A stretch of DNA of 64,000 nt from Planctomycetota bacterium. Its GTDB lineage: Bacteria; Planctomycetota; SZUA-567; JAKLDR01. How positions within the stretch are numbered: position 1 is the first letter of the stretch; every line of letters starts with the position of its first letter. The stretch spans positions 107,846 to 171,845 of the forward strand of contig JAKLDR010000001.1 in NCBI GenBank assembly GCA_022703445.1, read 5' to 3'. A program made the position numbers and the translations under genes. Of the stretch, positions 7,617 to 44,225 are shown in pieces. The notes beneath the pieces are model-generated. The model was not told the origin of the DNA. It saw nothing but the letters and a program-made list of their open reading frames with translations, and did no database searches.

Positions 7617-8780
<1,164 letters not shown>

Positions 8781-11942: not shown

Positions 11943-12025
11943 TGCCCGGGGCGGGGATCGAACCCGCATGAGGTTGCCCTCACCGGTTTTTGAAACCGGC
12001 GCGTCTGCCGTTCCGCCACCCGGGC
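11943..12025 (-). tRNA. tRNA-Leu (anticodon CAA), type II with a long variable arm.
   Basis: Reverse-complement reads GCCCGGGTGGCGGAACGGCAGACGCGCCGGTTTCAAAAACCGGTGAGGGCAACCTCATGCGGGTTCGATCCCCGCCCCGGGCA. 7-bp acceptor stem, anticodon loop TTCAAAA, T-arm GCGGG/TTCGATC/CCCGC. Confidence 0.9.
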
Positions 12026-22178: not shown

Positions 22179-22194
22179 CCGGAGAGGAACGGCC

Positions 22195-23277: not shown

Positions 23278-23284
23278 GCGGGCC

Positions 23285-24769
23285 ATGGTCTTCAGCTCGC
23301 ACATCTTCGTCTACTACTTCCTGCCGGCGGCGCTGGCGCTCTACTACGCCCTCTACCGGGCGCCGCAGCGCTGGCGCAACGCCTCGCTGATCCTGATGGG
23401 CTACGTCTTCTACGGCTGGGCCAACCCCAAGTTCATCTTCCTGATGTTCGGGACCACCTTCCTGGACTGGCTGCTCTCCCTGGTGGTCGCCTACGACTCC
23501 TGGCGCTTCTGGCGGGACTGGGGCGGCGAGTGCCGCCCGCTGCCCCGCGGCGCGCGCACCCGGACCCAGCGCTGGGCGGTGATCGGCTCGGTGGTCTCGA
23601 ACCTGGCCATGCTCGGATTCTTCAAGTACTTCAACTTCGGGGTGGACAGCTACAACGCCCTGGTCGAGGGGCTCGGCCTGGGCGCGGCCCGCTGGGACAC
23701 TTTCTTCCGGGTGGTCCTGCCGCTGGGCATCAGCTTCTACACCTTCCAGTCGATGAGCTACATCATCGACGTCTACCGCGGCGAGGCCAAGGCCATGCGC
23801 AACTTCGCCGACTTCTCCTGCTTCGTCTCGATGTTCCCGCACCTGGTGGCCGGGCCGATCCTGAAGTTCTCCTACCTGGCCGACCAGATCGAGAACCGCC
23901 GGCTGACCCTCGACAAGTTCGCCCGCGGGGTGGCCTTCTTCGGCCTGGGCATGGCCAAGAAGATCCTGCTGGCCAACCCCTGCGGCAAGATCGCCGACCT
24001 GGCCTTCGACTCCGGCAGCGTGGGCACCCTCGACTCCTGGTTCGGGGCGGTGGCCTACGCCTTCCAGATCTACTTCGACTTCAGCGGCTATTCGGACATG
24101 GCCATCGGCCTGGGCCTGATGCTCGGCTTCGTCTTCGCGCGGAACTTCAACTGCCCCTACCGCTCGCAGAACATCACCGAGTTCTGGCGGCGCTGGCACA
24201 TGTCCCTGTCGTCCTGGTTCCGCGGCTACCTCTTCACGCCGCTGGAGGTGGCCACCCGCTACCGCATGACGCCGGCCTGGCGCACCCCGGTCAACCTCAT
24301 GATCACCATGCTGCTGGTCGGGCTCTGGCACGGGGCCAGCTGGAACTACGTCATCTGGGGCGGGATCCAGGGCGCCATGATGGCCGCGGAGCAGATCCGC
24401 GGAAAGAAGGGCTTCTACAACTGGCTGCCGGTGCCGCTGCGCGTCGCGGTGACCTTCCTAATCGTGATCGTCAGCTGGGTCTTCTTCCGCGGAGGCGACC
24501 TCAGCCACATCATGGGCTACCTCGGCACCATGTTCGGCCTGGGCCAGGCCGCTCCGGGGGCTGGACTGCTCGGCGGGATCATCTACCAGCCCTACTACCT
24601 GGCCAGCTTCATCATCGCCGGCTACGTGGTCTGGCGGGTGCCGGACACCTGGGAGGCGACCCAGAAGCTCTCCTGGTGGAAGGTGGCGCTGGTGCTGGGA
24701 CTGTTCCTGCTCGCGCTGGTGGTGCTGCGCACGCAGGAGTACAACCCGTTCATCTACTTCATCTTCTGA
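23285..24769 (+). CDS. MBOAT-family membrane-bound O-acyltransferase (AlgI/DltB/PatA-like).
   Basis: Polytopic. MVFSSHIFVYYFLPAALALYY..., conserved ...FWRRWHMSLSSWFRGYLFTPL... histidine region. 494 aa. Confidence 0.85.
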   Translation: MVFSSHIFVYYFLPAALALYYALYRAPQRWRNASLILMGYVFYGWANPKFIFLMFGTTFLDWLLSLVVAYDSWRFWRDWGGECRPLPRGARTRTQRWAVIGSVVSNLAMLGFFKYFNFGVDSYNALVEGLGLGAARWDTFFRVVLPLGISFYTFQSMSYIIDVYRGEAKAMRNFADFSCFVSMFPHLVAGPILKFSYLADQIENRRLTLDKFARGVAFFGLGMAKKILLANPCGKIADLAFDSGSVGTLDSWFGAVAYAFQIYFDFSGYSDMAIGLGLMLGFVFARNFNCPYRSQNITEFWRRWHMSLSSWFRGYLFTPLEVATRYRMTPAWRTPVNLMITMLLVGLWHGASWNYVIWGGIQGAMMAAEQIRGKKGFYNWLPVPLRVAVTFLIVIVSWVFFRGGDLSHIMGYLGTMFGLGQAAPGAGLLGGIIYQPYYLASFIIAGYVVWRVPDTWEATQKLSWWKVALVLGLFLLALVVLRTQEYNPFIYFIF

Positions 24770-24777
24770 GGTGAGCC

Positions 24778-26526
24778 ATGCCTGAGACGCCGCAGATCGC
24801 GCTCTACGACAAGCACAGCCGGGAGGAGGAGGCGGAGCTCTCCCTCAAGCACACCGTGCTCACGCCGGCGGTCGCCTGGACGCTGGTCGCCGCGCTGCTC
24901 CTGGTGATCCTCGGCGAACCGCTGCTCCAGGCGGCGCTCGACCTCCGCGGCCGGCCGGCCGCCGACGGCTCGCGCATGCCCCAGGCCCTGGAGGTCTTCC
25001 GCCTGTGCCCCGGGCCGGCTTGGGCGGACCGGGCCGGGACTCCCGCGGGCGAGGCCCCGCGCGGCCTGCGCCGCCTGTGGGCCATGCTCCCGCCGGTCCG
25101 GGAGATCGAGGGCTTCGACGACGCCCTGGAGCGCAACTCCGCGGTGGGCAGGGCGCTCCTGCCGCGGATGCAGTACCTCATGACCCGCTTCGGCGGCGTG
25201 GGCAACGAACAGGCCTACGCGGGGCGCGACGGCTGGCTCTTCTACCGGCCGGAGGTCGACGCGCTGACCGCCCCGGGCTTCCTCGATCCGCGACAGCTAC
25301 AGCGGCGCGCCCGGAGCGGAGACTCGAGCTCCGAGGCGGTCCAGCCCGACCCGGTCAGGGCCCTGTTGGAGTTCGACCGGGAGCTGCGCGAGCGGGGCAT
25401 TGCCCTGGTGGTCATGCCCGCGCCGATGAAGCCCTCGGTCCACCCCGGACGGCTCTCACGGCGCTACGGCCCGGAGGACGGGCCGATCTACAACCCCTCC
25501 TATGCCAAGTTCCTGGCGGAGATGGAGCGCCACGGCATCCCGGTGCTGGACGTCTCCGCAGACCTGGCCGCGGCCGGGCGCGCGGCCGGCCGGGAGCAGT
25601 TCCTGGCGACCGACACCCACTGGACGCCGGAGGCCATGGAGTTCGCCGCCGGGAAGCTCGCCGAGCTCATCAGGGCCCGGGGCTGGCTGCCGGCGCGCGA
25701 GCCGGCCGGCTACGCCGCGCGCGAAGCCGAGGCGACGAACCGCGGCGACATCGAGGAGATGCTCAAGCTCCCCGCCGAGAGCGGCCTCTTCCCGGCGCAG
25801 AGGGTCGCGATCCGCCCGGTGGTCCGCGCCGACGGGAGCCCCTGGGAGCCGGAGCGCTCCGCGGACGTGCTGGTGCTCGGCGACAGCTTCTTCAACATCT
25901 ACTCGCTCCAGGCCATGAACTGGGGCGCTGGCGCCGGCTTCGTCGAGCAGCTCGCTCTCCGCCTGCAGCGGCCGCTCGACCGGATCACCATCAACGCCGG
26001 CGGCTCCTACACCACCCGCCAGGAGCTGGCCAAGGCATCCCAGCGCGACCGCCTGGTCGGCAAGCGCCTGGTGGTCTACGAGTTCGCCATGCGCGACCTG
26101 AGCGTCGGCGACTGGAAGCTCCTGCCGCTGCCGGCACCGTCGGCGGGAGGCGCCAAGCCGGTGGCTCCGGCGCCCCCGGCCATCGAGGCCGAGATCGAGA
26201 TCGAGGGCCGGATCCAGGCGATCGGGGCCACGCCCCGGCCGGGCACGGTCCCCTACAAGGACTGCTTCGTGGGCATCCATCTGAAGGATGCCAAGGCGAC
26301 CAAGGGCAGCCTGCCGGCCGGGGAGATCCTGGTCTACGCCTGGGGCATGCGCAACAACCAGTGGACGCCCGCGGCGACGGCCAAGCCCGGCCAGACCCTG
26401 CGCTTCGGCCTCGTGCCCTGGTCGAAGGTCGAGGCCAAGTACGGCTCCTTCAACCGCGCGGAGCCGCCGGGCGACGCGGAGGTCCTGCTCGGGCTGGACT
26501 CCTTCTGCGGCGAAGAGAGGAAGTAG
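24778..26526 (+). CDS. Second AlgJ/AlgX-like SGNH-type O-acyltransferase component, membrane-anchored periplasmic.
   Basis: N-terminal TM TLVAALLLVILG. DxHW block (LATDTHWTPEAM). 582 aa. Confidence 0.65.
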   Translation: MPETPQIALYDKHSREEEAELSLKHTVLTPAVAWTLVAALLLVILGEPLLQAALDLRGRPAADGSRMPQALEVFRLCPGPAWADRAGTPAGEAPRGLRRLWAMLPPVREIEGFDDALERNSAVGRALLPRMQYLMTRFGGVGNEQAYAGRDGWLFYRPEVDALTAPGFLDPRQLQRRARSGDSSSEAVQPDPVRALLEFDRELRERGIALVVMPAPMKPSVHPGRLSRRYGPEDGPIYNPSYAKFLAEMERHGIPVLDVSADLAAAGRAAGREQFLATDTHWTPEAMEFAAGKLAELIRARGWLPAREPAGYAAREAEATNRGDIEEMLKLPAESGLFPAQRVAIRPVVRADGSPWEPERSADVLVLGDSFFNIYSLQAMNWGAGAGFVEQLALRLQRPLDRITINAGGSYTTRQELAKASQRDRLVGKRLVVYEFAMRDLSVGDWKLLPLPAPSAGGAKPVAPAPPAIEAEIEIEGRIQAIGATPRPGTVPYKDCFVGIHLKDAKATKGSLPAGEILVYAWGMRNNQWTPAATAKPGQTLRFGLVPWSKVEAKYGSFNRAEPPGDAEVLLGLDSFCGEERK

Positions 26527-26529
26527 AAG

Positions 26530-28187
<1,658 letters not shown>

Positions 28188-28191
<4 letters not shown>

Positions 28192-31852: not shown

Positions 31853-31900
31853 TTTTGACGATATTTAAACACACCTGAGTATACCTGGATACACTCAGGC
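31853..31900 (+). promoter_or_regulatory. AT-rich promoter-like patch with an imperfect palindrome (cctgagtataCCtggATacactcagg) upstream of the HTH gene.
   Basis: ttgacgatatttaaacacacctgagtatacc: TTGACG followed by TATACC, with a palindromic operator-like element. It is the only AT-rich stretch in the region. Confidence 0.4.
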
Positions 31901-31932
31901 CGGTGCCAACCCCCAAGGGAGGTTCTCGAGCC

Positions 31933-32166
31933 ATGAGACTGAGCACCCGCGAGGCCGCCGAGCGCATCGGGGTATCCCGCAATACCCTGCTGCGCTGGTT
32001 TCGGGAGGGCCGCGTCTCCGACGTGCGCCGCGACCGGAACGGCTGGCGCTTCTTCTCCCCCGAGGACATCGGCCGGATCAAGGCCTTCGCCGAGCGGCAG
32101 TCGCCCCCGCCCGAGCGCTCCTCGGCGGCCGCGGGGCAGGCCCCGGCCCAGCAGGTGGCGGTATGA
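31933..32166 (+). CDS. Small HTH DNA-binding protein (excisionase/MerR-type HTH).
   Basis: MRLSTREAAERIGVSRNTLLRWFREGRV..., AAGGGAGG RBS 10 nt upstream. The ORF-track GTG at 31903 is less likely. Confidence 0.6.
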   Translation: MRLSTREAAERIGVSRNTLLRWFREGRVSDVRRDRNGWRFFSPEDIGRIKAFAERQSPPPERSSAAAGQAPAQQVAV

Positions 32167-32846
32167 GCGGCTCGAGCTTTCTGCCGCGCCCCCGGTGGCC
32201 GCGGCTGCTGGTCTGCCTGGCGAGCGCCCTGCCGGCGCTGGGCTGCATCGGCTCTGACTCCCGCTACCGGCAGGTCCGTCCGGACACCGTTCCGAGCGAG
32301 CAGGGCAAGCGGATCCTGGCCAGCTACACCGCCGAGAGACGCCCCGAGCCGACCGTGCGCCGGCCGGTCGTGACCACCCTGCCCGTCGATGCGCCGCCGG
32401 CCGTCAGCCTGCCCGGGAAGCCCGACCGTCCCTGGGACGGTCCGCCGCGGTCGCTGGGCAGAGACGAGGTCGCGCCGGCCCCGATCCCGGCGCCGCTGCC
32501 GGCTCCGACGCCCGTTCCGGCGCCGCCGAAGCCGCTGGACCCGCCGGTCGCCGGGCATCGTCCCCAGACCGGGCTGCTGCCGGGAGACACCATCGACGTG
32601 CAGGTCGAGCGCCACCCCGAGTTCAGCGGCCGCTGGCGGGTGCGGTCCGACGGCCTGCTGGATATCCCGGAGGGCGGAGCGTTCGTGGCCGATCTGCTGC
32701 CCGGCAGCGCCTTCGCCCGGCGGGTCGGGGCGGTCGACAGGCTCGATCCGGAGCAGGCCGGCAAGAGCATCGCCGGGGCGCTGCGGTCCTACCTGGTCAG
32801 CGATCCGGTCGTCAAAGTCACCCAGTTGACCAGGCGGGGGGACTGA
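32163..32846 (+). CDS. Polysaccharide export lipoprotein (Wza/KpsD/EpsE-like Poly_export domain).
   Basis: Lipobox LPALGC. Poly_export core LLPGDTIDVQVERHPEFSGRWRVRSDGLLDIPEGG. Pro-rich linker. Confidence 0.7.
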   Translation: MSGSSFLPRPRWPRLLVCLASALPALGCIGSDSRYRQVRPDTVPSEQGKRILASYTAERRPEPTVRRPVVTTLPVDAPPAVSLPGKPDRPWDGPPRSLGRDEVAPAPIPAPLPAPTPVPAPPKPLDPPVAGHRPQTGLLPGDTIDVQVERHPEFSGRWRVRSDGLLDIPEGGAFVADLLPGSAFARRVGAVDRLDPEQAGKSIAGALRSYLVSDPVVKVTQLTRRGD

Positions 32847-32849
32847 GCC

Positions 32850-34190
32850 ATGCCGGCCACGGGAGTCTTTCGCGCCGTCCGGCGCTCGCTGAAGAAGCGC
32901 GGCGTGGGCACCGGCCAGATCCTGTCCGCGGCGGCGCTGGTCTCGGGAATCCTGGCCGGGGCGCTGACCTGGACCGTCATCAAGGGCGCGGTCCTCGAGT
33001 ACCGCGCCGAGACCGGCCTGCGGTTCGGTCCGGCGGCCCGCGCCGAGGAGGCCGCGGCGGCCCTGTCCGACCGCGTCGGCAATGCGGAGTTCCAGTCCGC
33101 CTGGCGCCGCAGCGCCGAGGCGGGGGAAGGGCTCTCCGGCAGCGGCCGGCTCGAAGTCGACATCGTGGACGCCTCGGCCGGAGAGGCCCGCCTGGTCTGT
33201 CACGGCCGCCCGCGCATAGCCGCCATCCGCGCCCTGGCCTGGGCCCGCGACAGACTGACCGACCCCCGGACCTCGGGCATCGCCCCGCTGCAGCCCGAGG
33301 GCCACGCCAGGCGTCTGGGCGACGCCAGGAAGCGGCTGGCCGAGTACCAGGCGGCCCTGAAGGCGGCCAGGGACGCGGAAGCGGCTCTGCCCGCCGCCCG
33401 CAAGGACTGGCCGGGGCGCAAGGCCGCCGCGGACGCGGATCTCGCCAAGGCGCAGGTCGAGGTCGGGCTGCGCCGCGCGGAGATGGAGCGCGCCCGGACC
33501 GCGGTCGGTGAGGAGCGGCGCCTTGCGCTGCGCGGCGAGATCGACAAGCTGGCCGCCGTGGTTGGCAAGGCCGCCCCGCCGACTCCGGCCGAGGAGCTGA
33601 AGCTGGCTGGCGAGCGCAGCCGCCTGGAGCGGCTCATGACCGGCGCCGCACGCGAAGACTGCACCCCGGACCATCCCGTGGTGCGCCGGCTCGACGAGAT
33701 CGCCGCCCGGCTCAAACAGGCGGACCTCGCCCGGCAGCTGGCCGAGTGTGACGGCCGGCAGGAGCAGCTCAAGTTCGTGCAGTCCCAGCTGGAGGCCGCC
33801 CAGGCCAGGCGGGACGCGGCCGGCCGCGAGGCCGACAAGTTCGAGCAGGAGCGCAAGGCCGCCGACGCGGCCTCCAACGAAGCCGCGCGCATCGCCGTGG
33901 ACGTGAAGACCGCCGGGACGGAGGTCGACCGGCTCGCGGCCGTGCCGGCGATCCCGGTCACGGTCACGATGGCCGGGGGGATATCCGAGGATCTGGAGCG
34001 CTCCTGGCTGATCTGGCCGTGCCTGGGCGGCGGGCTGGCCGCCGGGCTGGTGCTCATGGTCCTGGTCCGGCGCTACCACTTCTTGCGCCACTCGCGGCTC
34101 GACAGCCGTTCGGGGCTCGCGCGCTGCCTGCACCTGCCGGTGCTCGGCGTGATCCCCGACCTGCCCGACCTGGCCGCCAAGCAGGAATAG
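32850..34190 (+). CDS. Polysaccharide chain-length determinant (Wzz/PCP, GumC/EpsF-like) with N- and C-terminal TM helices and a coiled-coil periplasmic region.
   Basis: TM1 ILSAAALVSGILAGALTWTVI, TM2 LIWPCLGGGLAAGLVLMVLV. Long Ala/Arg/Glu-rich coiled coil in between. Confidence 0.7.
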   Translation: MPATGVFRAVRRSLKKRGVGTGQILSAAALVSGILAGALTWTVIKGAVLEYRAETGLRFGPAARAEEAAAALSDRVGNAEFQSAWRRSAEAGEGLSGSGRLEVDIVDASAGEARLVCHGRPRIAAIRALAWARDRLTDPRTSGIAPLQPEGHARRLGDARKRLAEYQAALKAARDAEAALPAARKDWPGRKAAADADLAKAQVEVGLRRAEMERARTAVGEERRLALRGEIDKLAAVVGKAAPPTPAEELKLAGERSRLERLMTGAAREDCTPDHPVVRRLDEIAARLKQADLARQLAECDGRQEQLKFVQSQLEAAQARRDAAGREADKFEQERKAADAASNEAARIAVDVKTAGTEVDRLAAVPAIPVTVTMAGGISEDLERSWLIWPCLGGGLAAGLVLMVLVRRYHFLRHSRLDSRSGLARCLHLPVLGVIPDLPDLAAKQE

Positions 34191-34204
34191 GAGGCCACAG
34201 ACAA

Positions 34205-35476
34205 ATGCCAGGCCTGGGAGACGCCCTCAGCAAGGCGATGGACGATTCGCGCCGCGGGTTGGACGACCTGGTCCGCCGCGCCGCGCAGAACGAGACCGAG
34301 CAGGACGGAGCGGAGCCGCCCCCCGCTGCGGACCGGCCGGCCGCTGCCGGCCCGGTCAGCCCGGAGGAGCGCGAGTTCCTGGTGGTGCCGCTGGACGGGG
34401 CCCGACAGGCCGCGGCCCCGGAGGGGTCGGGAGGCCCGGATCCGGCCAAGACCGCACAACTGCCCCGGCCCGACCTGTTCGCCGAACTTGCGGACGACCC
34501 GGCGGGAGCGCCGCCGGAGCCGGCTCCCGACCCGGTCCCGGCCCGGGCTCCCGAGAGGCCGCGGGCTGCGGCCCCTGCCCCTGCTCCGGCGCCGGCGGCC
34601 GCCAGCCCGTCTCCCGCCAATACCCGGGAGAGTCGCGCTGCGGCTGGCCGGTCGGGTGGCCTGGAGCCGATCGCTCCGTTCGCGCCCAGCGGAGTCATCC
34701 GTCGCCAGCTGCGCGCGCCGGCTAAGGGTGCGGACAGGGGCGCGGTCCGAACTCCCGACGCGCTGCTGGTCAACCGGCCCGAGCGGCGCCCGCTCGCCGA
34801 GGAGATCACCGACTCGCGCCGCCTGCCATCGCTACCGGGCGCGGAGGCCTACCGCCACCCCGAACTGGTTCGCGGCGTCGGCGGCGTGGTTCAGGCCCTG
34901 CTCTCCGGGCGGGCCGGCACGCCGGCGGTGCTGGCGGTCTGCGGCGCCGGGGTCGGGGCGGGCTGCACCACGGTGGCCGCGGCCACGGCCATGGAACTGG
35001 CCGCGAAGTCCGGCATCCGCGTGCTGCTGGTCGACGCCGACCTCCGCGCGCCGGGGCTCGACGCGCTGGCTGGCGAGGGCGGCGGTCCGGGCTTCGCCGA
35101 CGTACTGGCCGGCGGGGCCAGCCTGCAGGACGCGCTGGTCTGCTCCGGAAGCGAAAGCCTGGCGGTGCTGCCCATGGGCGACAGCCGGGTGGCCGCCGAC
35201 GACCAGTCCGGCATGCTCCGGCTGCTGGAGGGCGCCGCGCCCGGCCGGCTGCTCGGGGCCTGCCGCGGGCTGTTCGATGCCGTCATCCTCGATGCCGGCG
35301 ACGGCGCCTGGCGGGGCACGGCCATGCTGGCCGGCGCGGCTGGCGCGGCGGTGCTGGTGGTCCGCTCCGGCCTGGGCAGCGCCAGCGAGGTGCGCCGAAC
35401 CGGACGGGATCTCGAGCACTTCGGGACCAGGCTGATCGGCACCGTCCTCAACCGCGTTCCGGGCCGGGAGAAGTGA
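34205..35476 (+). CDS. BY-kinase/ParA-MinD-fold protein (EpsG/CpsD-like) with a degenerate Walker A and no C-terminal Tyr cluster. Likely a non-kinase partner.
   Basis: GAGVGAGCTTVAAATAMELA stands in place of GEGKSTT (the Lys is missing). Walker A' VLLVDADLRAP is retained. Ends ...NRVPGREK with no YYY cluster. Disordered Pro/Ala-rich N-terminal half. Confidence 0.65.
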   Translation: MPGLGDALSKAMDDSRRGLDDLVRRAAQNETEQDGAEPPPAADRPAAAGPVSPEEREFLVVPLDGARQAAAPEGSGGPDPAKTAQLPRPDLFAELADDPAGAPPEPAPDPVPARAPERPRAAAPAPAPAPAAASPSPANTRESRAAAGRSGGLEPIAPFAPSGVIRRQLRAPAKGADRGAVRTPDALLVNRPERRPLAEEITDSRRLPSLPGAEAYRHPELVRGVGGVVQALLSGRAGTPAVLAVCGAGVGAGCTTVAAATAMELAAKSGIRVLLVDADLRAPGLDALAGEGGGPGFADVLAGGASLQDALVCSGSESLAVLPMGDSRVAADDQSGMLRLLEGAAPGRLLGACRGLFDAVILDAGDGAWRGTAMLAGAAGAAVLVVRSGLGSASEVRRTGRDLEHFGTRLIGTVLNRVPGREK

Positions 35477-35477
35477 A

Positions 35478-36323
35478 GTGTACCTGGACCACTGGAAGCT
35501 GCGCCTGAGGCCGTTCCGGGACGCCCCGGACACCCGCTTCTTCTTCCATTCCGGGACGCACGACGCGGCCCTGGCCGAGCTGCTCTATGCCGTTGACGAG
35601 CGCCTGGCGGTGGCGCTGCTGACCGGGCCGTTCGGCTCCGGCAAAACCCTGGTGCTGCGCGCGCTGCTCGGCGGCCTCTCCGGGGCGGGCGGCTACCGCA
35701 CGGCGGTACTGACCGGACGGCTGACCGATCCGGCCGAGACGGTTCTGGCCGCCGCCCGGGCCCTGGGCGTCGAGGACCTCGCCGACGGGGTCTCCGAGGA
35801 AAGGCTGCGGGGGCGGCTGGAGGAGCACCTCGGGGCGCTGGCCGCGGAATCGACGCGTCCGGTGCTGGTGATCGACGACGCCCAAGCCGTGGACTCCCCG
35901 GCGGTCTGGGAGGCGCTCAGGGGCATGCTGGCCATCCCCGGCGCCGACGGGCCCGCGCTCACGCTGATCCTGTCCGGCGGCCCCCAGCTGCTCGAGCGGG
36001 TTGCGGCCGTCCCGGGCTTCGGCGAGCGGGTGCGGGTGTGCACCACGCTGGTGCCCCTGTCCGACGAGGAGAGCCTCGACTACATCCTCCACCGGCTGGC
36101 CTGCGCCGGCTCGGCCAGCGGCATCTTCACCCGCCGGGCCGCGGAGGACATCGCCCGGCTCTCCGGCGGCCTGCCCTCCCGCATCAACCACCTGGCCGAC
36201 CTGGCCCTGGCCGCGGCCTTCGGGCTGGGGTTGAAGGCGGTCGGGCCCGAGGTCGTGGCCATGGCTGCCAAGGAGGCCACGGCGGTCTGGTCCGGAGCCG
36301 CCCGGGGGGCGCCGGCGGGCTGA
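35478..36323 (+). CDS. ExeA/GspA-like AAA ATPase (EPS/PEP-CTERM-locus-associated ATPase family).
   Basis: MYLDHWKLRLRPFRDAPDTRFFFHSGTHDAALAELLYAV...LLTGPFGSGKT (Walker A), Walker B VLVIDDAQ. GTG start one codon after the upstream stop. Confidence 0.8.
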   Translation: MYLDHWKLRLRPFRDAPDTRFFFHSGTHDAALAELLYAVDERLAVALLTGPFGSGKTLVLRALLGGLSGAGGYRTAVLTGRLTDPAETVLAAARALGVEDLADGVSEERLRGRLEEHLGALAAESTRPVLVIDDAQAVDSPAVWEALRGMLAIPGADGPALTLILSGGPQLLERVAAVPGFGERVRVCTTLVPLSDEESLDYILHRLACAGSASGIFTRRAAEDIARLSGGLPSRINHLADLALAAAFGLGLKAVGPEVVAMAAKEATAVWSGAARGAPAG

Positions 36324-36345
36324 GCGCCGCCGGAGGCAGCGAGCC

Positions 36346-37920
36346 ATGACCGCCCTCTTCCGCTCGGGCAAGCCGAAGGAGCCGGAGCCGCCCGATCCTC
36401 CCAAGGAGCGGGAGCTCACTCCCGAAGAGCAGCTTCTGGCCGAGAAGGCCCGGGCCGCCGCCGCCAAGCGTGAGGAGGAGCGGCGCGCGCAGACCAACGA
36501 CGTCTCCAACTTCCTGGACGACATTCTCGGGACCGTCGACGAGGAGGGCGAGGCTGGCGAGGCTGGCACGGCTGAGCCGGCCCCCGGGTCGGCGTCCGAG
36601 GACGCGCTGGAATCAGGGGCCTCCGGCCCTTCGGGGGCCCTCCCGGTCGAGCCGGAGCCGGAGCCGCCTGGGGCATCGGAGTCCCCGGAGCCGCCGGCCC
36701 CCTTCGCCTCCGGCGAGGGCGGCTCGGAGGTCCGTTCGGGGGCCGACTGGGTCGAGCCGGAGCAGACCTTCCGGGCTGGTGTCTACGACCCGCACTCTCC
36801 TGCCGCCGAGGCCGGCCGGCGCACGCTGTCCCTGCCCATGGCCGAGGCCTGGTCGCGGATCGTGGCCATGGGCATGCCCGGCGACCCGGGGGCTCGGCCG
36901 GCCTTCGAGCCCGAGCCGGCCGAGGGGTCCTTCGCCCGCACGCTCGAGTCCCTGGGCCGGCGGCGGCACCGCGGCGGTCCCGCGCTGGACTTCGAGCCGG
37001 AGGAATCCGTAGCCGGTCAGGAGCCGCAGTCCGCCCGCCGGACGATCATCCTGCCGGCCAGGCTGGCGCACCAGGACTATTCACTCGAGGACCTGCCCGA
37101 CCGGCCCCCCGAGGGCCTGTCCGTCGGGGACGAGGCGCTCGATCGCGGTTCCGATGCCGAGCCGCCGCTGCCGGAGGACCGCCTCGATGACACCGCCCTG
37201 AGCGAGGCACTGGCCGCCGCCGAGGTCGCTTCGCGCCGGGCCCCGGCGGCCGCCGAGGCGCCGCCGGCCGCTCCTCCGCCGGCGCAGCCCGTTCCCGCGC
37301 CCGCGCCAGAGCCCCAGAGGCAGTATTCGCTGGATGACCTGCCGCCAGCGCCGGCCGGTCCGGGCGGCCCGGCGGCCGATCCCTCCGGACGCACCGACCG
37401 CTCCGCCCAGGCCGACGGGGACCGGCTCGCCGAGGAGCAGCTCCCCGCCCTTCCCTCCAGCACGGCGCCGGCAGCGGCCGCGGCCGGGCCCGGGCCGGGC
37501 AATCTAGTCACCCTGGAGCGGGCCGTGGACCGCTCCGTTGAGCCGGGCCGGAGCGCTCAGCCGCCGTCTGCGGCGGATGGCGCGGTGCCCATGGCCGCCG
37601 CGGAGAACGCGGCCGACCTGTCCGTTCAGCAGCTCGCCGAGATGGAACGCTACATCGAGAACCAGGTGGATCCTTCGGATCCGACTAGGCAGATCAGCCG
37701 CAAGGCTCCGGAGCGTCCCGGCATGACGCTCGGAGATCTGCTGGCCTCCGCCCGCCGGGCGCTGGCCGGGCTGGCGGTCAAGACGCTCAAGACCGCCGAC
37801 CGGCTGCTGGCTCCGTACTGCCTAGACTGCAAGCGCCTGCTGGGGATCGTCGGCATCCTCCTGTGGGCCGGTCTGATAGCATTCATCATCAAGACCTGGT
37901 TCATGCCCGCGGGCGAGTAG
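36346..37920 (+). CDS. Acidic Pro/Ala/Glu-rich low-complexity protein with a single C-terminal TM helix (tail-anchored).
   Basis: 524 aa, mostly disordered. C-terminal LLGIVGILLWAGLIAFIIKTWF. Co-directional and 22 bp downstream of the ExeA-like ATPase. Confidence 0.5.
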   Translation: MTALFRSGKPKEPEPPDPPKERELTPEEQLLAEKARAAAAKREEERRAQTNDVSNFLDDILGTVDEEGEAGEAGTAEPAPGSASEDALESGASGPSGALPVEPEPEPPGASESPEPPAPFASGEGGSEVRSGADWVEPEQTFRAGVYDPHSPAAEAGRRTLSLPMAEAWSRIVAMGMPGDPGARPAFEPEPAEGSFARTLESLGRRRHRGGPALDFEPEESVAGQEPQSARRTIILPARLAHQDYSLEDLPDRPPEGLSVGDEALDRGSDAEPPLPEDRLDDTALSEALAAAEVASRRAPAAAEAPPAAPPPAQPVPAPAPEPQRQYSLDDLPPAPAGPGGPAADPSGRTDRSAQADGDRLAEEQLPALPSSTAPAAAAAGPGPGNLVTLERAVDRSVEPGRSAQPPSAADGAVPMAAAENAADLSVQQLAEMERYIENQVDPSDPTRQISRKAPERPGMTLGDLLASARRALAGLAVKTLKTADRLLAPYCLDCKRLLGIVGILLWAGLIAFIIKTWFMPAGE

Positions 37921-38047: not shown

Positions 38048-39316
<1,269 letters not shown>

Positions 39317-39317
39317 A

Positions 39318-40277
39318 ATGGCCAGGAAGCCCAGGGGTCCGGAGGAATACACCCGCGAGGAGCTGATGCTCATGGCCGAGCGGGTGAACCTCAAGTACCG
39401 CAGCCGGAAGAGCAAGGAACAGCTTTACGAGGAGCTCGGCCTGGGTGCCAAGCCCGGGCGCTCCCGCCGGCCGTCCAGCCGCAAGATTCCGGCCTCGCCG
39501 CCCGCGCGGCGCCCTGCGCCCGCCCGCGAGTCCCGCGCCGTCCGCGCCGCCAACGCCCCCGTCGGTCTGCCCGAGGGCGCGCTGCCGGAGCTGACCTCGT
39601 CGTCTTCCGGCATCCCGCTGCCCTCGCTCTTCGCGCCGGCCGCCCAGCGGACCGGCCCGTACATCGACCGCGGCCCGGACCTGCCCGCCGGCTACGGCGA
39701 CGATGTCCTGGAGGCGCTGGTCCGCGACCCGCGGGCCATCTACGTCTACTGGGAGCTGGCCGGCGGCGCCCACGCCCGGGCCTGCGCGAACCGGAGCGAG
39801 GCGGAACTGGCCGGCGCGGTCTGGGTGCTGCGCGTCAGCCGCCTGGAGGATGACAACTTCTTCGACATCCCGGTCGACCCGGGCGTCGGCAACTGGTACC
39901 TGCACGTCGACCCGGACGGCTCCTACCAGGTGCGGATCGGCCTGGTGCTGGCCTCGGGCTCGTTCATCGAGCTGGCCGCCAGCCGGGTGGTGCGCACTCC
40001 GCCCGACTCGGTCAGCGAGCGCCAGGACGAGCAGTGGATGCTGGTCAGCGAGGAGTTCGACCGGCTGGTCGACTACACCGTCAGCCTGCACGGCCGCGCG
40101 CCGGGCTCGGCCCAGATGGGCGAGCTGCGCCGGCGACGCGAGGCCCTGCGCCGCAAGGTGGCCGAGTTCCCCTGGAACATCTCCAGCTGCATCAGCTCGG
40201 CGGCGGTCTCCAGTTGGATGACCTCGCCCAGGGGCGGCGGTCCGGGCGCCGGCGCGGCCGGCAAGCAGGGGCGGTAG
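39318..40277 (+). CDS. GH57-associated protein of unknown function (DUF4912-like) with a Rho_N-like N-terminal motif.
   Basis: EELMLMAERVNLKYRSRKSKEQLYEEL is Rho-N-like. Core ...PRAIYVYWELAGG...WVLRVSRLEDDNFFDIPVD...WYLHVDPDGSYQVRIGL. Wedged between glgC and the GH57 gene. The domain name is recalled from memory, not searched. Confidence 0.55.
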   Translation: MARKPRGPEEYTREELMLMAERVNLKYRSRKSKEQLYEELGLGAKPGRSRRPSSRKIPASPPARRPAPARESRAVRAANAPVGLPEGALPELTSSSSGIPLPSLFAPAAQRTGPYIDRGPDLPAGYGDDVLEALVRDPRAIYVYWELAGGAHARACANRSEAELAGAVWVLRVSRLEDDNFFDIPVDPGVGNWYLHVDPDGSYQVRIGLVLASGSFIELAASRVVRTPPDSVSERQDEQWMLVSEEFDRLVDYTVSLHGRAPGSAQMGELRRRREALRRKVAEFPWNISSCISSAAVSSWMTSPRGGGPGAGAAGKQGR

Positions 40278-40282
40278 CGCCC

Positions 40283-41860
40283 GTGCCTGCCGGATACTTC
40301 GCGCTGGTCCTGCACGCCCACCTGCCCTTCGTCCGCCACCCCGAGCACAAGGAGTTCCTGGAGGAGGGGTGGTTCTACGAGGCTCTGACCGAGACCTACC
40401 TGCCGCTGCTGCTGGCCTACGAGCGGATGGCCAACGACGGCGTCAGGTTCCGGATCACCATGAGCCTGACCCCGCCGCTGTGCGAGATGATGTGCGACCC
40501 GCTGCTGCAGGGCCGCTACATCCAGAACCTGGACAAGCTCGAGCACCTGGCCGAGCGCGAGGCCGCCGCCTGGAAGCCGGAGACGCCCATCGGCACCATG
40601 GCCCGGATGTACCTGGACAACTTCCGGGCCTGCCGCGCGCGCTTCGAGGCGGCCGGCCGGAACATCATCGGCGGCTTCCGCGCGCTCCAGGACGCCGGCT
40701 ATCTCGAGATCATCACCTGCGGAGCGACCCACGGGATGCTCCCGCTGATGCGCACCGAGGAGGCCATCCGCGCGCAGATCGAGGTGGCCAAGGCCAACTA
40801 CCGGAAGCACTTCGGGCGCGACCCGCGGGGCATCTGGCTGCCGGAGTGCGCCTACCGCCCGGGCATCGAGACCCACCTCAAGGCCGCCGGCATCCGCTTC
40901 TTCATCATGGACGCCCACGGCCTGCTCTTCGCCACCCCGCGCCCGAAGTACGGCGTCTTCCGGCCGGCCTACGCGCCGGGCGGAGTGGCCGCCTTCGCGC
41001 GCGACCTCGAGAGCGCCAAGCAGGTCTGGAGCCGCGAGGAGGGCTACCCCGGCGACTACGACTACCGGGAGTTCTACCGCGACCTCGGCCACGACGGCGA
41101 GCAGACCTACGTCGGGCCCTACCTGCCCTCGGGCATCCGCACGAACCTGGGCATCAAGTACCACCGCATCACCGGCCAGGTCCAGCTGCACGAGAAGGCC
41201 TTCTACGACCCGCGCGCGGCGCGCGAGAAGGCCGCCAGCCACGCCGGCAACTTCCTGTTCAACCGCCAGCACCAGCTCAGGTACCTGCGCGACCTGCTGG
41301 GCACCGAGCCGGTGATCACCAGCCCCTACGACGCCGAGCTCTTCGGCCACTGGTGGTACGAGGGGCCGCAGTTCCTGGAGTTCCTCTACCGCAAGATGCA
41401 CTTCGACCAGAAGGACATCGAGTCGACCACCCCGGCCGAGTTCCTGGACCGCTTCCAGACCCACCAGACCCTGCAGCCGGCGGCCTCCACCTGGGGCGAC
41501 AAGGGCTACTTCGAGGTCTGGCTCAACGGCACCAACGACTGGATCTACCGCCACCTGCACAAGGCCGAGGAGCGCATGGTCGAGCTGGCCCGCACCCGCC
41601 CGGCGAGTTCCGGCTGGGAGGAGCGGGCCCTGAAGCAGGCGGCGCGCGAGCTGCTGCTCGCCCAGAGCTCCGACTGGGCCTTCATCATGACCACCGGCAC
41701 GATGGCCGCCTACGCCGAGCGCCGCACCCGCGACCACGTGGCCCGCTTCACCCGGCTCTACGAGGAGATCAAGGCCGGGCGGATCGACCAGGGCTGGCTG
41801 GCCGACATCGAGGGCAAGGACACCATCTTCCAGGAGATCGACTACCGGGTCTACCGGTAG
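40283..41860 (+). CDS. GH57-family 1,4-alpha-glucan branching enzyme.
   Basis: GTG start. VPAGYFALVLHAHLPFVRHPEHKEFLEEGWFYEALTETYLPLL is the GH57 N-terminus. ...ITCGATHGMLPL..., 525 aa. Confidence 0.85.
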   Translation: MPAGYFALVLHAHLPFVRHPEHKEFLEEGWFYEALTETYLPLLLAYERMANDGVRFRITMSLTPPLCEMMCDPLLQGRYIQNLDKLEHLAEREAAAWKPETPIGTMARMYLDNFRACRARFEAAGRNIIGGFRALQDAGYLEIITCGATHGMLPLMRTEEAIRAQIEVAKANYRKHFGRDPRGIWLPECAYRPGIETHLKAAGIRFFIMDAHGLLFATPRPKYGVFRPAYAPGGVAAFARDLESAKQVWSREEGYPGDYDYREFYRDLGHDGEQTYVGPYLPSGIRTNLGIKYHRITGQVQLHEKAFYDPRAAREKAASHAGNFLFNRQHQLRYLRDLLGTEPVITSPYDAELFGHWWYEGPQFLEFLYRKMHFDQKDIESTTPAEFLDRFQTHQTLQPAASTWGDKGYFEVWLNGTNDWIYRHLHKAEERMVELARTRPASSGWEERALKQAARELLLAQSSDWAFIMTTGTMAAYAERRTRDHVARFTRLYEEIKAGRIDQGWLADIEGKDTIFQEIDYRVYR

Positions 41861-43693: not shown

Positions 43694-44092
43694 ATGACCA
43701 ACGCAGACCTCATCAAGCACGCCCAGTCGGTGGTCAAACCCCGGCGGATCGCCCACGACTACGGCGTCGGCGACGTCGGCTGCGCGCTGCTCTCGGGCAG
43801 CGGCAAGGTCTATCTCGGCGTCTGCATGGACACGAGCTGCGGAATCGGCTTCTGCGCCGAGCACGCGGCCATCGCCGCCATGGTCACGGCCGGCGAGGAG
43901 CGCATCAAGAAGATCGTCGCCGTGCTCGGCGACGGCAAGGTGCTGTCGCCCTGCGGCCGCTGCCGGGAGTTCATGCACCAGATCGACCACCGCAACCTCG
44001 ACGAGACCGAGGTGGTCCTGGCCCCCGACCGCGCAGTGAAGCTCCGCGAGCTCCTGCCCCACCCCTGGGACGAGGTGTGGGCGAAGAAGTAG
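43694..44092 (+). CDS. cdd: Cytidine deaminase.
   Basis: CAEHAAI and SPCGRCREF zinc-binding motifs. 132 aa. Confidence 0.8.
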   Translation: MTNADLIKHAQSVVKPRRIAHDYGVGDVGCALLSGSGKVYLGVCMDTSCGIGFCAEHAAIAAMVTAGEERIKKIVAVLGDGKVLSPCGRCREFMHQIDHRNLDETEVVLAPDRAVKLRELLPHPWDEVWAKK

Positions 44093-44096
44093 CCCG

Positions 44097-44127
44097 CGAG
44101 GCCGGCCGCGGCCGGGGCTCAGCCTCG
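44097..44127 (+). terminator. GC-rich palindromic hairpin after cdd (cgaggc-ccggccgcggccgg-...-gcctcg).
   Basis: Begins 5 nt after the stop codon. Contains the palindrome ccggccgcggccgg. Confidence 0.35.
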
Positions 44128-44142
44128 ACCGTGGTTCGGGCT

Positions 44143-44171
44143 TTGACAGTCCCGCCCGTCCGGCATATTCT
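44143..44171 (+). promoter_or_regulatory. Strong sigma-70-like promoter candidate (TTGACA-N17-TATTCT) for the large HEAT-repeat gene.
   Basis: Consensus -35 with 17-nt spacing. The ATG at 44226 lies 55 nt downstream. Confidence 0.55.
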
Positions 44172-44225
44172 GCCGTCGCGGCCGCCTTGGGCGGCCTGAT
44201 CTGGCAGTTTCCGCGGAGGCTGCGC

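What the first reader, a model, noticed from the sequence alone, without database searches (positions are those of the whole stretch)
31853..37920. Polysaccharide export module with a degenerate (Lys-less) BY-kinase-like protein, an ExeA-type ATPase and a tail-anchored acidic protein
The gene order is HTH, Wza-like lipoprotein, Wzz-like co-polymerase, ParA/MinD-fold BY-kinase homologue, ExeA/GspA-like AAA ATPase. This mirrors the EpsE-F-G-I organisation of PEP-CTERM/exosortase-type EPS loci, yet no exosortase or PEP-CTERM protein is visible in the window. The kinase-like protein has GAGVGAGCTT where the Walker A GxGKS/T belongs, so the lysine is missing. It has no C-terminal tyrosine cluster but retains Walker A' DxD, which suggests a pseudo-kinase or ATP-binding scaffold. 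The last gene encodes a 524-aa Pro/Glu/Ala-rich disordered protein with a single C-terminal TM helix. That is an unusual tail-anchored architecture, placed where a GspB/ExeB-like partner of ExeA would be expected.
Basis: partly seen in the sequence, partly recalled or inferred. Interest (0 to 1): 0.6.

Follow-up and report, generated by a model that had tools for sequence, protein, structure and literature searches.

The report
Stripped-down polysaccharide-export cassette with dead kinase
An uncultured planctomycete carries a conserved six-gene operon that looks like a cut-down sugar-polymer export machine, with an inactive kinase-like scaffold, a very short outer-membrane part, an intact helper ATPase and an unknown acidic membrane-anchored protein; it is a new variant of a known kind of system, not a new kind.

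Summary
Six co-directional, tightly packed genes lie at 31933-37920:
- a MerR-type HTH;
- a small Poly_export lipoprotein;
- a two-TM protein shaped like a polysaccharide co-polymerase (PCP);
- a BY-kinase-fold protein whose Walker A lysine is Cys;
- an intact ExeA/TIGR03015-like AAA ATPase;
- a 524-aa acidic, disordered, tail-anchored protein.

The whole cassette recurs in four other metagenomic loci from Planctomycetota-type MAGs, with different flanks. The lysine is absent in every ortholog (C/S/T/A), so the loss is fixed in the family.

No exosortase, PEP-CTERM tail, glycosyltransferase or Wzx/Wzy is present in the 64 kb. None is seen next to the cassette in the other loci.

Lys-less BY pseudokinases paired with stand-alone PCP-2 proteins are already described (EcpK/EpsV, HfsB/HfsA), so the headline feature is not new.

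Four things look unusual:
- the outer-membrane polysaccharide export (OPX) protein has only the Poly_export domain, with no SLBB and no pore helix;
- the pseudokinase carries a ~190-residue disordered arm with conserved motifs;
- the tail-anchored partner is an orphan family with repeated Y-S-L-D-D-L-P motifs;
- the cassette stands alone, away from glycan-synthesis genes.

Most likely it is a phosphorylation-independent envelope-spanning export or assembly scaffold. This function is inferred from homology only.

The parts
31933..32166 (+). Small MerR-type HTH protein (77 aa from the conserved Met; the ORF opens at GTG 31903). First gene of the cassette; its stop overlaps the next start by 4 nt.
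   Evidence: Pfam MerR_1 2e-8, 34.6 bits vs 21.6. TIGR01764 excisionase-type HTH 27.5 bits, just under its cutoff. Near-identical HTH genes precede the cassette in L001, L005 and L008/L009.
32163..32846 (+). Minimal OPX-like outer-membrane lipoprotein (227 aa). It has a signal peptide with lipobox LGC (Cys28, 32238-32246), a ~110-aa Pro-rich linker, and one Poly_export (PES, Wza D1) domain from about residue 135 to 222 (32565-32828). The protein then ends. There is no SLBB and no Wza_C.
   Evidence: Pfam PF02563 3.4e-7, 30.8 bits vs 28. The only NCBIfam hit is TIGR03027 at 18 bits. In the PDB profile search all relevant hits are OPX proteins: 9n9a at 4e-7 and Wza at 0.01. The second half of the PES domain aligns to the very C-terminus. 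G27-C28 and the PES core are invariant in 5 orthologs.
32850..34190 (+). PCP-2-like inner-membrane protein without a kinase domain (446 aa). TM1 is residues 24-44, followed by a ~340-aa periplasmic helical region, TM2 at 386-406, and a cytoplasmic tail with LPVLGVIPD (34134-34160).
   Evidence: Hydropathy. hhalign against true PCP-2a proteins matches only TM2 plus the tail, with probability 56 % and E 1e-4. TIGR03007 E 0.28 at the same place. No Pfam hit. The single-sequence AF2 model (pLDDT 57.6) gives TM, a beta-alpha-alpha-beta-beta-alpha base, two long helices and TM. Foldseek top hits are Wzc and WzzB but are not significant, E 4e-3 to 4e-2.
34205..35476 (+). BY-kinase-fold pseudokinase (423 aa). 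Conserved N-terminal helix MPGLGDALSKAM... (34205-34240); disordered Pro/Ala-rich arm, about residues 33-190; conserved IAPFAPSGVIRR (34670-34705); P-loop domain at 190-420. Degenerate Walker A GAGVGAGCTT (34943-34972) with Cys254 in place of Lys (34964-34966). Walker A' VDADLR (35030-35047). Walker B-like ILDAGD (35285-35302). No Tyr cluster.
   Evidence: NCBIfam TIGR01005/03029/01007/03018 at 1e-12 to 6e-16, all below cutoffs. PDB profile search: BceF, VpsO, Etk, CapB and Wzc at 1e-19 to 1e-12, ahead of MinD. AF2 domain pLDDT 70-89. Foldseek ranks 1-45 are all BY-kinases. The Lys position is C/T/S/T/A/A/S/C in 8 orthologs.
35478..36323 (+). Soluble ExeA/GspA-type AAA ATPase (281 aa) with intact Walker A GPFGSGKT (35625-35648) and Walker B VIDDAQ (35868-35885). 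No TM segment and no peptidoglycan-binding domain.
   Evidence: TIGR03015 3.4e-35, 121.8 bits (cutoff 324.5), aligned 1-260 to 1-259 of 269. Pfam AAA_22 1e-15. G50, G53, G55, K56 and D133 are invariant in 20 homologues down to 31 % identity. It is the best conserved cassette gene, 57-76 % identity.
36346..37920 (+). Orphan acidic tail-anchored protein (524 aa, net charge -38). N-terminal charged helix (36424-36486); disordered Pro/Glu/Ala-rich body with two Y-S-L-[DE]-D-L-P motifs (37078-37098 and 37324-37344); conserved helix AAENAADLSVQQLAEMERYIENQVD (37597-37671); PYCLDCK (37813-37833); C-terminal TM helix (37837-37890). Only about 9 residues follow the TM helix.
   Evidence: No Pfam or NCBIfam family. 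Composition and hydropathy. Alignment of 4 orthologs. An exhaustive phmmer search of 1.84 billion representatives finds only 20 proteins, all apparently of this one family. The motif and the tail anchor recur in them.

Best explanation
This is a self-contained six-gene operon of an uncultured Planctomycetota lineage. It encodes a reduced, phosphorylation-independent relative of the Wza-Wzc type (OPX / PCP-2 / BY-kinase) envelope-spanning polysaccharide export module.

Inferred mechanism:
- The two-TM PCP-like protein oligomerises in the inner membrane.
- Its cytoplasmic juxtamembrane tail (PVLGxIP) docks a ring of the BY-fold pseudokinase. This is how CapA docks CapB and how EpsV is proposed to dock EcpK.
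- The pseudokinase cannot phosphorylate: it has no Walker A Lys, no Tyr tail, and a Walker A' that is eroding across the family. It therefore acts as a scaffold.
- On the periplasmic side, the outer-membrane lipoprotein contributes only the Poly_export (D1) ring, the part of Wza that meets the co-polymerase. It hangs on a long Pro-rich tether.
- Assembly and disassembly are normally driven by Tyr phosphorylation cycles. Here they are proposed to be driven or licensed by the one intact NTPase of the operon, the ExeA/TIGR03015-like AAA ATPase, together with the acidic tail-anchored protein. That protein would hold the ATPase and/or the pseudokinase at the membrane through its short linear motifs (Y-S-L-D-D-L-P).
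- The MerR-type HTH probably regulates the operon.
- The polymer, its synthesis genes and an outer-membrane conduit must be encoded elsewhere.

Shown: gene content, motif states, folds and conservation of the unit. Inferred: all interactions, the role of the ATPase, and export as the function.
For: - Family and fold of each part.
- Lys-less state fixed in 8 orthologs, and Walker A' decays in the distant ones.
- ATPase catalytic motifs invariant.
- PCP-like topology, and its C-terminal tail matching the PCP-2a juxtamembrane segment.
- The same six genes in the same order appear in the window, L001, L005 and L008/L009, and the last three genes in L003, with unrelated flanks.
- Tight spacing suggests one transcript.
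- The order OPX-PCP-BYK equals that of a true exosortase locus, L011.
- Published precedent that a BY pseudokinase can serve a kinase-less PCP-2 as a scaffold (EcpK/EpsV, HfsB/HfsA): PMC12004946.
- A more degenerate IDR-plus-BYK-like protein again sits directly upstream of a homologous ATPase in L014. The pseudokinase-ATPase pair therefore recurs outside the cassette.
Against: - No glycosyltransferase, flippase, polymerase, synthase or beta-barrel porin lies beside the cassette in any of the five loci, and none is found anywhere in the 64-kb window.
- The OPX protein lacks the SLBB domain that all three described OPX classes possess (PMC9603273). It has no pore-forming part, so it cannot be the conduit.
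- The PCP assignment has no significant family or fold hit.
- No interaction was tested.
- The role proposed for the ATPase has no experimental precedent that I could find.
Confidence: 0.55

Rival explanations
1. It is the export arm of a genuine XrtA/PEP-CTERM exosortase EPS system (the TIGR03027 / 03007 / 03018 / 03015 set). The exosortase, the PEP-CTERM proteins and the glycosyltransferases would be encoded elsewhere in the genome.
For: The only NCBIfam hit of the OPX is TIGR03027. The only significant hit of the ATPase is TIGR03015, over its full length. TIGR03018 and TIGR03007 are among the hits of the other two proteins. The gene order matches that of a real exosortase locus. The N-terminal 'M..l.dAl.KA' start is shared with stand-alone BYK proteins P0008 and P0019.
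Against: All four scores are far below the curated cutoffs. No Exosortase_EpsH or EpsI, and no PEP-CTERM-like tail, is found in 64 kb or beside the cassette in L001, L003, L005 or L008. The true locus L011 carries an SLBB-containing OPX, a BBP2_2 barrel, GTs and a flippase, all of which are missing here.
Confidence: 0.15
2. The parts came from a polysaccharide exporter, but the cassette no longer moves a polymer. It would be a trans-envelope tether or signalling scaffold: an OM lipoprotein on a Pro-rich leash, a periplasmic helical spacer, and cytoplasmic disordered hubs, remodelled by the AAA ATPase. It might organise the unusual planctomycete envelope or recruit other proteins.
For: The loss of channel and catalytic features is fixed in the family: a D1-only OPX and a dead kinase. 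There are two long conserved disordered regions with short linear motifs. The cassette is consistently isolated from glycan genes. Homologous AAA_22 ATPases are used in non-glycan contexts, namely CheA-CheW in L013 and a secretin locus in L010.
Against: No positive evidence exists for any alternative cargo or function. Gene clustering is said to be loose in planctomycetes (from my own knowledge), so the absence of neighbouring GT genes is weak evidence. The PES domain and the PCP tail, which are the contact elements of exporters, are the conserved parts.
Confidence: 0.2
3. The two NTPase-fold proteins belong to unrelated systems. One would be a MinD/ParA positioning ATPase. The other would be part of a GspA-GspB type secretin-assembly factor for a type II secretion system or type IV pilus.
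For: MinD models hit the P-loop domain at 1e-13 and 1e-11. Relatives of the ATPase carry PG_binding or SPOR domains, or sit beside a secretin.
Against: BY-kinases outrank MinD in HMM, PDB-profile and fold searches; the first MinD appears at rank 46. The deviant Walker A lysines of MinD/ParA are absent. The gene sits after an OPX and a PCP-like gene. No secretin, pilin or GspB lies in the window. The downstream protein has no periplasmic domain.
Confidence: 0.05
4. The cassette is a decaying remnant of an exporter, with genes on the way to pseudogenisation and no function.
For: Catalytic and channel features have been lost.
Against: All six reading frames are intact and syntenic in loci whose proteins have diverged to 28-60 % identity. 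Motifs in the disordered regions are conserved. GC3 is strongly coding (0.85-0.93) for four of the six frames; the OPX-like and BY-kinase-like frames did not pass my GC3 filter. The ATPase motifs are invariant.
Confidence: 0.03

Closest known systems
BY pseudokinase / kinase-less PCP-2 pairs: EcpK-EpsV (Myxococcus xanthus) and HfsB-HfsA (Caulobacter crescentus), as described in PMC12004946
   Same: A stand-alone protein with the BY-kinase fold, lacking catalytic residues and the Tyr tail, is encoded next to a PCP-2-type membrane protein that has no kinase domain. An OPX gene precedes both. The expected role is a phosphorylation-independent scaffold.
   Different: - Here the P-loop glycines, the Walker B Asp and (in close members) the Walker A' DxD survive. 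EcpK is reported to have lost all three motifs.
- A ~190-residue disordered N-terminal arm with two conserved motifs is added.
- The cassette is not inside a Wzx/Wzy cluster.
- It is coupled to an AAA ATPase and a tail-anchored protein.
- Direct sequence comparison with EcpK or HfsB was not possible with the tools.
XrtA/PEP-CTERM-associated EPS export set (NCBIfam TIGR03027 OPX, TIGR03007 chain-length determinant, TIGR03018 tyrosine autokinase, TIGR03015 ATPase)
   Same: The same four protein types occur. The first three are in the order seen in a true exosortase locus (L011). The best or only NCBIfam hits of the OPX and the ATPase are to this set.
   Different: - All scores are far below the cutoffs.
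- No exosortase or PEP-CTERM proteins are nearby.
- The kinase is dead.
- The OPX lacks SLBB.
- There is no TIGR03016/BBP2_2-type barrel.
- An HTH gene and an orphan tail-anchored protein are added.
Class-3 OPX proteins (Poly_export-SLBB(1-n), no Wza_C; PMC9603273) and the solved 186-aa 'polysaccharide export protein' 9n9a
   Same: It is a short lipoprotein with an N-terminal Poly_export domain and no outer-membrane-spanning helix. It would need a separate porin.
   Different: There is no SLBB domain at all. The protein ends with the Poly_export domain, so it falls outside the published three-class scheme. No beta-barrel partner gene is adjacent.
ExeA/GspA-ExeB/GspB secretin-assembly factor of type II secretion (PMC4098917) and MshM of MSHA pili
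   Same: The AAA_22 ATPase domain is homologous and has intact Walker motifs. It is followed by a gene for a single-pass membrane protein.
   Different: - The ATPase has no TM segment and no peptidoglycan-binding domain.
- The partner is tail-anchored with essentially no periplasmic part, so it cannot reach the peptidoglycan or a secretin.
- No secretin gene is present.
E. coli Wza-Wzc (e.g. PDB 9r64, 7nhr)
   Same: The overall logic is shared: an OM lipoprotein with a PES domain, an inner-membrane two-TM co-polymerase with a long helical periplasmic domain, and a cytoplasmic BY-kinase-fold ring.
   Different: - The system is split into separate polypeptides.
- The kinase is inactive.
- Wza domains D2-D4 are missing.
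- No Wzb phosphatase is present.

Membership tests
Catalytic BY-kinase (Wzc/Etk/CapB type) | Walker A GxxxxGK[ST] with the catalytic lysine | tested here: not met
   Cys254 aligns with the Lys of BceF, VpsO and true BY-kinases. The position is C/T/S/T/A/A/S/C in 8 orthologs.
Catalytic BY-kinase (Wzc/Etk/CapB type) | C-terminal tyrosine cluster | tested here: not met
   There is one Tyr in the whole protein (Y216). The C-terminus is ...NRVPGREK. Orthologs also end without Tyr.
Catalytic BY-kinase (Wzc/Etk/CapB type) | Walker A' (hhhhDxDxR) and Walker B (hhhhDxxP) motifs | tested here: inconclusive
   VDADLR and ILDAGD are present in the window. The Walker B Asp is invariant. Walker A' becomes DAN (L005) and EAN (L008), and the Pro of Walker B is absent.
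Catalytic BY-kinase (Wzc/Etk/CapB type) | BY-kinase P-loop fold rather than MinD/ParA | tested here: met
   The PDB profile search ranks BceF, VpsO, Etk, CapB and Wzc at 1e-19 to 1e-12, ahead of MinD at 1e-11. Foldseek ranks 1-45 are all BY-kinases.
BY pseudokinase + bipartite PCP-2 subfamily (EcpK/HfsB type, PMC12004946) | Stand-alone BYK-fold protein lacking catalytic and Tyr-tail features, encoded beside a PCP-2 that has no kinase domain | tested here: met
   for the pseudokinase. for the adjacent two-TM kinase-less PCP-like protein.
BY pseudokinase + bipartite PCP-2 subfamily (EcpK/HfsB type, PMC12004946) | Direct interaction with the cytoplasmic base of the PCP, and a requirement for polysaccharide synthesis | not testable with these tools
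   This needs AF-multimer, two-hybrid assays or genetics.
BY pseudokinase + bipartite PCP-2 subfamily (EcpK/HfsB type, PMC12004946) | Part of a Wzx/Wzy-dependent gene cluster | tested here: not met
   No Polysacc_synt (Wzx), Wzy or GT domain is found in about 40 window ORFs or in the flanks of L001, L003 or L008.
OPX (Wza/KpsD) proteins, classes 1-3 | N-terminal Poly_export (PF02563) domain | tested here: met
   30.8 bits vs the gathering score of 28. The PDB profile search hits OPX proteins only.
OPX (Wza/KpsD) proteins, classes 1-3 | At least one SLBB domain after Poly_export (PMC9603273) | tested here: not met
   No SLBB hit. The PES domain runs to within 5 residues of the C-terminus in all 5 orthologs.
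OPX (Wza/KpsD) proteins, classes 1-3 | Outer-membrane pore element (Wza_C) or an adjacent beta-barrel partner | tested here: not met
   No Wza_C or GfcC is present. No barrel gene lies next to the cassette in any locus.
PCP-2 polysaccharide co-polymerase | Two TM helices flanking a large periplasmic domain | tested here: met
   The TM segments are at 24-44 and 386-406.
PCP-2 polysaccharide co-polymerase | Wzz (PF02706) / GNVR (PF13807) sequence signature, or the Wzz fold | tested here: inconclusive
   No Pfam hit. TIGR03007 E 0.28. hhalign matches only the TM2-tail region, probability 56 %. The low-confidence AF2 model has a PCP-like layout, and its top Foldseek hits are Wzc and WzzB, but at E 4e-3 or worse.
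XrtA/PEP-CTERM exosortase EPS system | Exosortase (EpsH/XrtA) and PEP-CTERM proteins in the genome, usually in the locus | tested here: not met
   Neither is found in the 64-kb window, and no exosortase is found in the flanks of four other loci. The rest of the genome could not be searched.
XrtA/PEP-CTERM exosortase EPS system | Scores above the curated cutoffs of TIGR03027, TIGR03007, TIGR03018 and TIGR03015 | tested here: not met
   The scores are 18.3 vs 180, 9.3 vs 278.9, 46.2 vs 230.7 and 121.8 vs 324.5 bits.
ExeA/GspA assembly ATPase | AAA_22 ATPase domain with intact Walker A and B | tested here: met
   AAA_22 1e-15. GxxGxGK and the Walker B Asp are invariant.
ExeA/GspA assembly ATPase | TM segment plus a periplasmic peptidoglycan-binding domain, a GspB partner, and a secretin client | tested here: not met
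   There is no TM segment and no PG_binding or SPOR domain. No secretin lies in the window. Relatives P0054 and P0056 do carry such domains.

The most novel reading that the evidence does not exclude
The dead BY-kinase has kept its peptide-binding cleft. It has lost its own Tyr tail, so it instead binds the invariant-Tyr motifs (Y-S-L-D-D-L-P, 1-3 copies) of the orphan tail-anchored protein. The AAA ATPase remodels this multivalent, disordered membrane-bound assembly. Together with a channel-less D1-only OPX on a long tether, this would make a repurposed trans-envelope scaffold rather than an exporter. That would be a new use of Wza/Wzc parts in planctomycetes.
Probability: 0.12. Interest if true: 0.7.

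Novelty: new variant of a known kind. Interest (0 to 1): 0.4.

Why it matters
It adds a third, phylogenetically distant lineage to the recently recognised phosphorylation-independent PCP-2 / BY-pseudokinase systems. It also shows an extreme reduction: an OPX with only its Poly_export domain.

It ties the so far uncharacterised TIGR03015-type ATPase to a pseudokinase as a recurring pair. That suggests where the energy or timing input could come from once tyrosine phosphorylation is lost.

It defines an orphan tail-anchored protein family with a clear short linear motif that can be tested for binding.

All carriers found are uncultured MAGs and the function is inferred. The immediate impact is therefore modest.

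Tried and rejected
- Lysine shifted by a few residues: rejected. The nearest Lys is 17 residues downstream, in the helix after the P-loop. The profile alignment puts Cys/Ser on the Lys.
- Sequencing error: rejected. The identical protein occurs in other assemblies and all orthologs lack Lys.
- MinD identity: rejected.
- The longer ORF start at 34019 for the kinase-like gene: rejected in favour of 34205.
- A concatenated OPX+PCP query was used to save a capped search. It returned only the self hit and wasted the last homologous-protein run.
- Genome and metagenome scans with the pseudokinase motifs gave only 3 and 1 loci.
- The consensus promoter/terminator scan and the DNA repeat scan of the cassette gave nothing beyond GC-rich low-complexity matches.
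- Rfam found only one tRNA in the window.
- The literature search for an ExeA-type ATPase in polysaccharide export found nothing relevant.
- The Haft 2006 PEP-CTERM paper does not discuss the ATPase or the kinase.
- A link between the cassette and the downstream glycogen genes was considered. The adjacency holds in 3 loci but is lost in L005 and L008, so it was not adopted.

Full report
**What is there**

The window is about 70 % G+C. Between 31903 and 37920 six genes lie on the + strand with overlaps or gaps of -4 to 22 nt.

1. An HTH protein (31933-32166 from the conserved Met) matches MerR_1 at 2e-8.

2. A 227-aa protein (32163-32846) has a lipobox (LGC, Cys28), a Pro-rich linker and one Poly_export domain.
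   - The Pfam hit is 30.8 bits against a gathering score of 28.
   - A profile of five orthologs hits only OPX proteins in the PDB: 9n9a at 4e-7 and Wza at 0.01. The second half of the domain aligns to the extreme C-terminus.
   - There is therefore no room for an SLBB domain or a Wza_C helix.

3. A 446-aa protein (32850-34190) has TM helices at 24-44 and 386-406 around a ~340-residue helical region.
   - It has no Pfam hit.
   - Only its TM2 plus the tail 'LPVLGVIPD' matches true PCP-2a proteins (hhalign probability 56 %, E 1e-4; TIGR03007 E 0.28).
   - A single-sequence AF2 model (pLDDT 57.6) shows the PCP layout: TM, an alpha/beta base, two long helices, then TM. Its best Foldseek hits are Wzc and WzzB, but none is significant.

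4. A 423-aa protein (34205-35476) has an N-terminal helix, a ~160-residue disordered Pro/Ala-rich arm and a P-loop domain.
   - BY-kinase models hit the domain at 1e-12 to 6e-16, all below their cutoffs.
   - A family profile ranks BceF, VpsO, Etk, CapB and Wzc at 1e-19 to 1e-12, ahead of MinD.
   - The AF2 model has domain pLDDT 70-89. It retrieves BY-kinases at ranks 1-45, and the first MinD appears at rank 46.

5. A 281-aa ATPase (35478-36323) matches AAA_22 at 1e-15.
   - It aligns end to end with TIGR03015 at 3.4e-35, 121.8 bits against a cutoff of 324.5.

6. A 524-aa protein (36346-37920) matches no family.
   - It has net charge -38 and is Ala/Pro/Glu-rich.
   - It has one TM helix ending about 9 residues before the stop.

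**The missing lysine**

GAGVGAGCTT occupies residues 247-256, and Cys254 aligns with the Walker A lysine. There is no nearby lysine. The identical protein occurs in other assemblies.

In eight orthologs the position is C, T, S, T, A, A, S, C. The loss is therefore fixed in the family.

- The P-loop glycines and the Walker B Asp are invariant.
- Walker A' DxD is kept in the close orthologs but becomes DAN or EAN in the distant ones.
- The protein has a single Tyr and no C-terminal Tyr cluster.

In contrast, the Walker A and B residues of the ATPase are invariant in 20 homologues down to 31 % identity. The operon thus holds one probably active NTPase and one pseudo-NTPase.

**Conservation and context**

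The same six genes in the same order occur in four other loci:
- L001 (identical to L004, a 158-kb MAG contig);
- L005;
- L008/L009;
- L003, which holds the last three genes only.

The identical ATPase is annotated 'Planctomycetota bacterium'.

Identity to the window differs by gene:
- ATPase: 57-76 %;
- pseudokinase: 41-61 %;
- tail-anchored protein: 42-56 %;
- OPX-like: 40-44 %;
- PCP-like: 28-38 %.

The flanks differ. glgC-DUF4912-GH57 follows the cassette in the window, L001 and L003. TPR/RDD genes or other genes follow in L008 and L005.

In none of the loci, and nowhere in the 64-kb window, is there an exosortase, glycosyltransferase, Wzx/Wzy or porin gene. No PEP-CTERM-like tail was found in the window ORFs.

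A genuine exosortase locus fetched for comparison (L011) reads as follows: exosortase, TPR, OPX with SLBB, PCP with GNVR, a Lys-containing BYK, a BBP2_2 barrel, GTs, then a flippase.

**The tail-anchored protein**

An exhaustive phmmer search of 1.84 billion cluster representatives finds only 20 proteins. They share this protein's motifs and tail anchor.

The family signature has four elements:
- an N-terminal charged helix;
- one to three copies of Y-[SG]-L-[DE]-D-L-P in the disordered body;
- a conserved amphipathic helix;
- a very conserved 'PY(C/S)LSCKxLLGIxGI' tail anchor.

A related 'LLSLDDLDVAP' occurs in the disordered arm of the L008 pseudokinase.

**Comparison with what is known**

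BY-kinase-like proteins without catalytic residues or Tyr tails, working with kinase-less PCP-2 proteins, are described for Myxococcus (EcpK/EpsV) and Caulobacter (HfsB/HfsA). They are said to be widespread and are proposed to act as scaffolds (PMC12004946).

Lys-less BYK domains also turned up in unrelated hits of my own search: P0007 has Ala, P0008 has Cys and P0009 has Arg at that position.

Published OPX classes all contain Poly_export plus at least one SLBB (PMC9603273). The protein here does not.

ExeA/GspA proteins carry a TM segment and a peptidoglycan-binding domain and serve a secretin (PMC4098917; relatives P0054 and P0056; secretin context in L010). Here the ATPase is soluble, and the next protein has no periplasmic part.

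A more degenerate disordered-arm-plus-BYK-like protein (GSRRGTGATAAA; VDGHL) again sits directly upstream of a homologous ATPase in L014. There the ATPase is followed by a multi-TM protein rather than a tail-anchored one. The pseudokinase-ATPase pair is thus the recurrent core.

**Interpretation**

The best reading (confidence 0.55) is a reduced, phosphorylation-independent Wza/Wzc-type envelope module.
- The PCP-like oligomer sits in the inner membrane.
- The pseudokinase ring docks on its cytoplasmic tail.
- The PES-only lipoprotein caps it from the outer membrane on a long tether.
- The intact AAA ATPase, with the tail-anchored acidic protein, supplies the regulated assembly input that Tyr phosphorylation gives elsewhere.

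The polymer, its synthesis genes and an outer-membrane conduit would be encoded elsewhere. Every interaction, and the export function itself, is inferred.

The rivals are:
- a true exosortase-system arm (0.15);
- a repurposed non-export scaffold (0.2);
- unrelated MinD or GspA roles (0.05);
- a decaying relic (0.03).

**Verdict**

This is a new variant of a known kind and is moderately interesting. The unusual elements are the D1-only OPX, the disordered arm on the pseudokinase, the orphan Tyr-motif tail-anchored partner and the stand-alone nature of the cassette. The loss of the lysine itself is not new.

Noticed in passing
window 22003-28191 (+): An operon of AlgX-like SGNH (2e-30), MBOAT (DltB-like, TIGR04091 at 165 bits, below cutoff), a second AlgX-like protein (7e-29) and an AMP-binding enzyme. 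It looks like a polymer O-acylation module. It is the only other glycan-modification set in the window, about 4 kb upstream of the cassette.
   Followed up: partly
window 38048-41860 (+); L001 14204-18022; L003 3926-7697: glgC, a DUF4912 protein and a GH57 branching enzyme directly follow the cassette in three loci, but not in L005 or L008. This is either conserved synteny among closer relatives or a hint of a link to alpha-glucan.
   Followed up: partly
L014 1785-6831: A distant version of the core pair. A 435-aa protein has an 'MSQLDQAF' start, a Pro-rich disordered arm and an even more degenerate BYK-like P-loop (GSRRGTGATAAA; VDGHL). It sits directly upstream of an AAA_22 ATPase that is 36 % identical to the window's. 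A multi-TM protein follows, which from its sequence I judge to be ArnT/PMT-like.
   Followed up: partly
L013 2714-6509: A 35 %-identical AAA_22 ATPase (P0052, Vicinamibacteria) sits between CheA and CheW genes. This ATPase family is also used in a chemotaxis-type operon.
   Followed up: no
L010 10001-16993: In an Omnitrophica MAG two AAA_22 ATPases flank an HD-domain protein. They are followed by a secretin and a TPR protein, an MshM/MshN/secretin-like arrangement.
   Followed up: no
proteins P0007, P0008, P0009; L012: Other BY-kinase-domain proteins from unrelated contigs also lack the Walker A lysine: Ala in a Wzz-fused 493-aa protein, Cys in a 265-aa stand-alone protein next to a weak-Wzz PCP (L012), and Arg in a 505-aa protein. 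Lys-less BYK domains are therefore not rare.
   Followed up: partly
L008 2808-4250, residue 69 of the pseudokinase: The disordered arm of this ortholog contains 'LLSLDDLDVAP'. This resembles the Y-S-L-D-D-L-P motif of the tail-anchored protein.
   Followed up: no
window 6686-8161 (-) and 7617-8789 (-): Two long high-GC3 reading frames overlap by about 540 nt in different frames. One has a PHP_C fragment and the other an ABC_tran + TOBE_2 ATPase. This could be a frameshift, a mis-called start or a shadow frame.
   Followed up: no
window 44040-47294 (+) and 9740-10660 (+): There is a 1084-aa protein made almost entirely of HEAT repeats (HEAT_2 6.6e-65) and a second, smaller HEAT-repeat protein. 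HEAT-repeat genes also flank the cassette in L001, and one lies upstream in L005.
   Followed up: no
window 11943-12025 (-): A single tRNA gene is the only Rfam match in the window.
   Followed up: no
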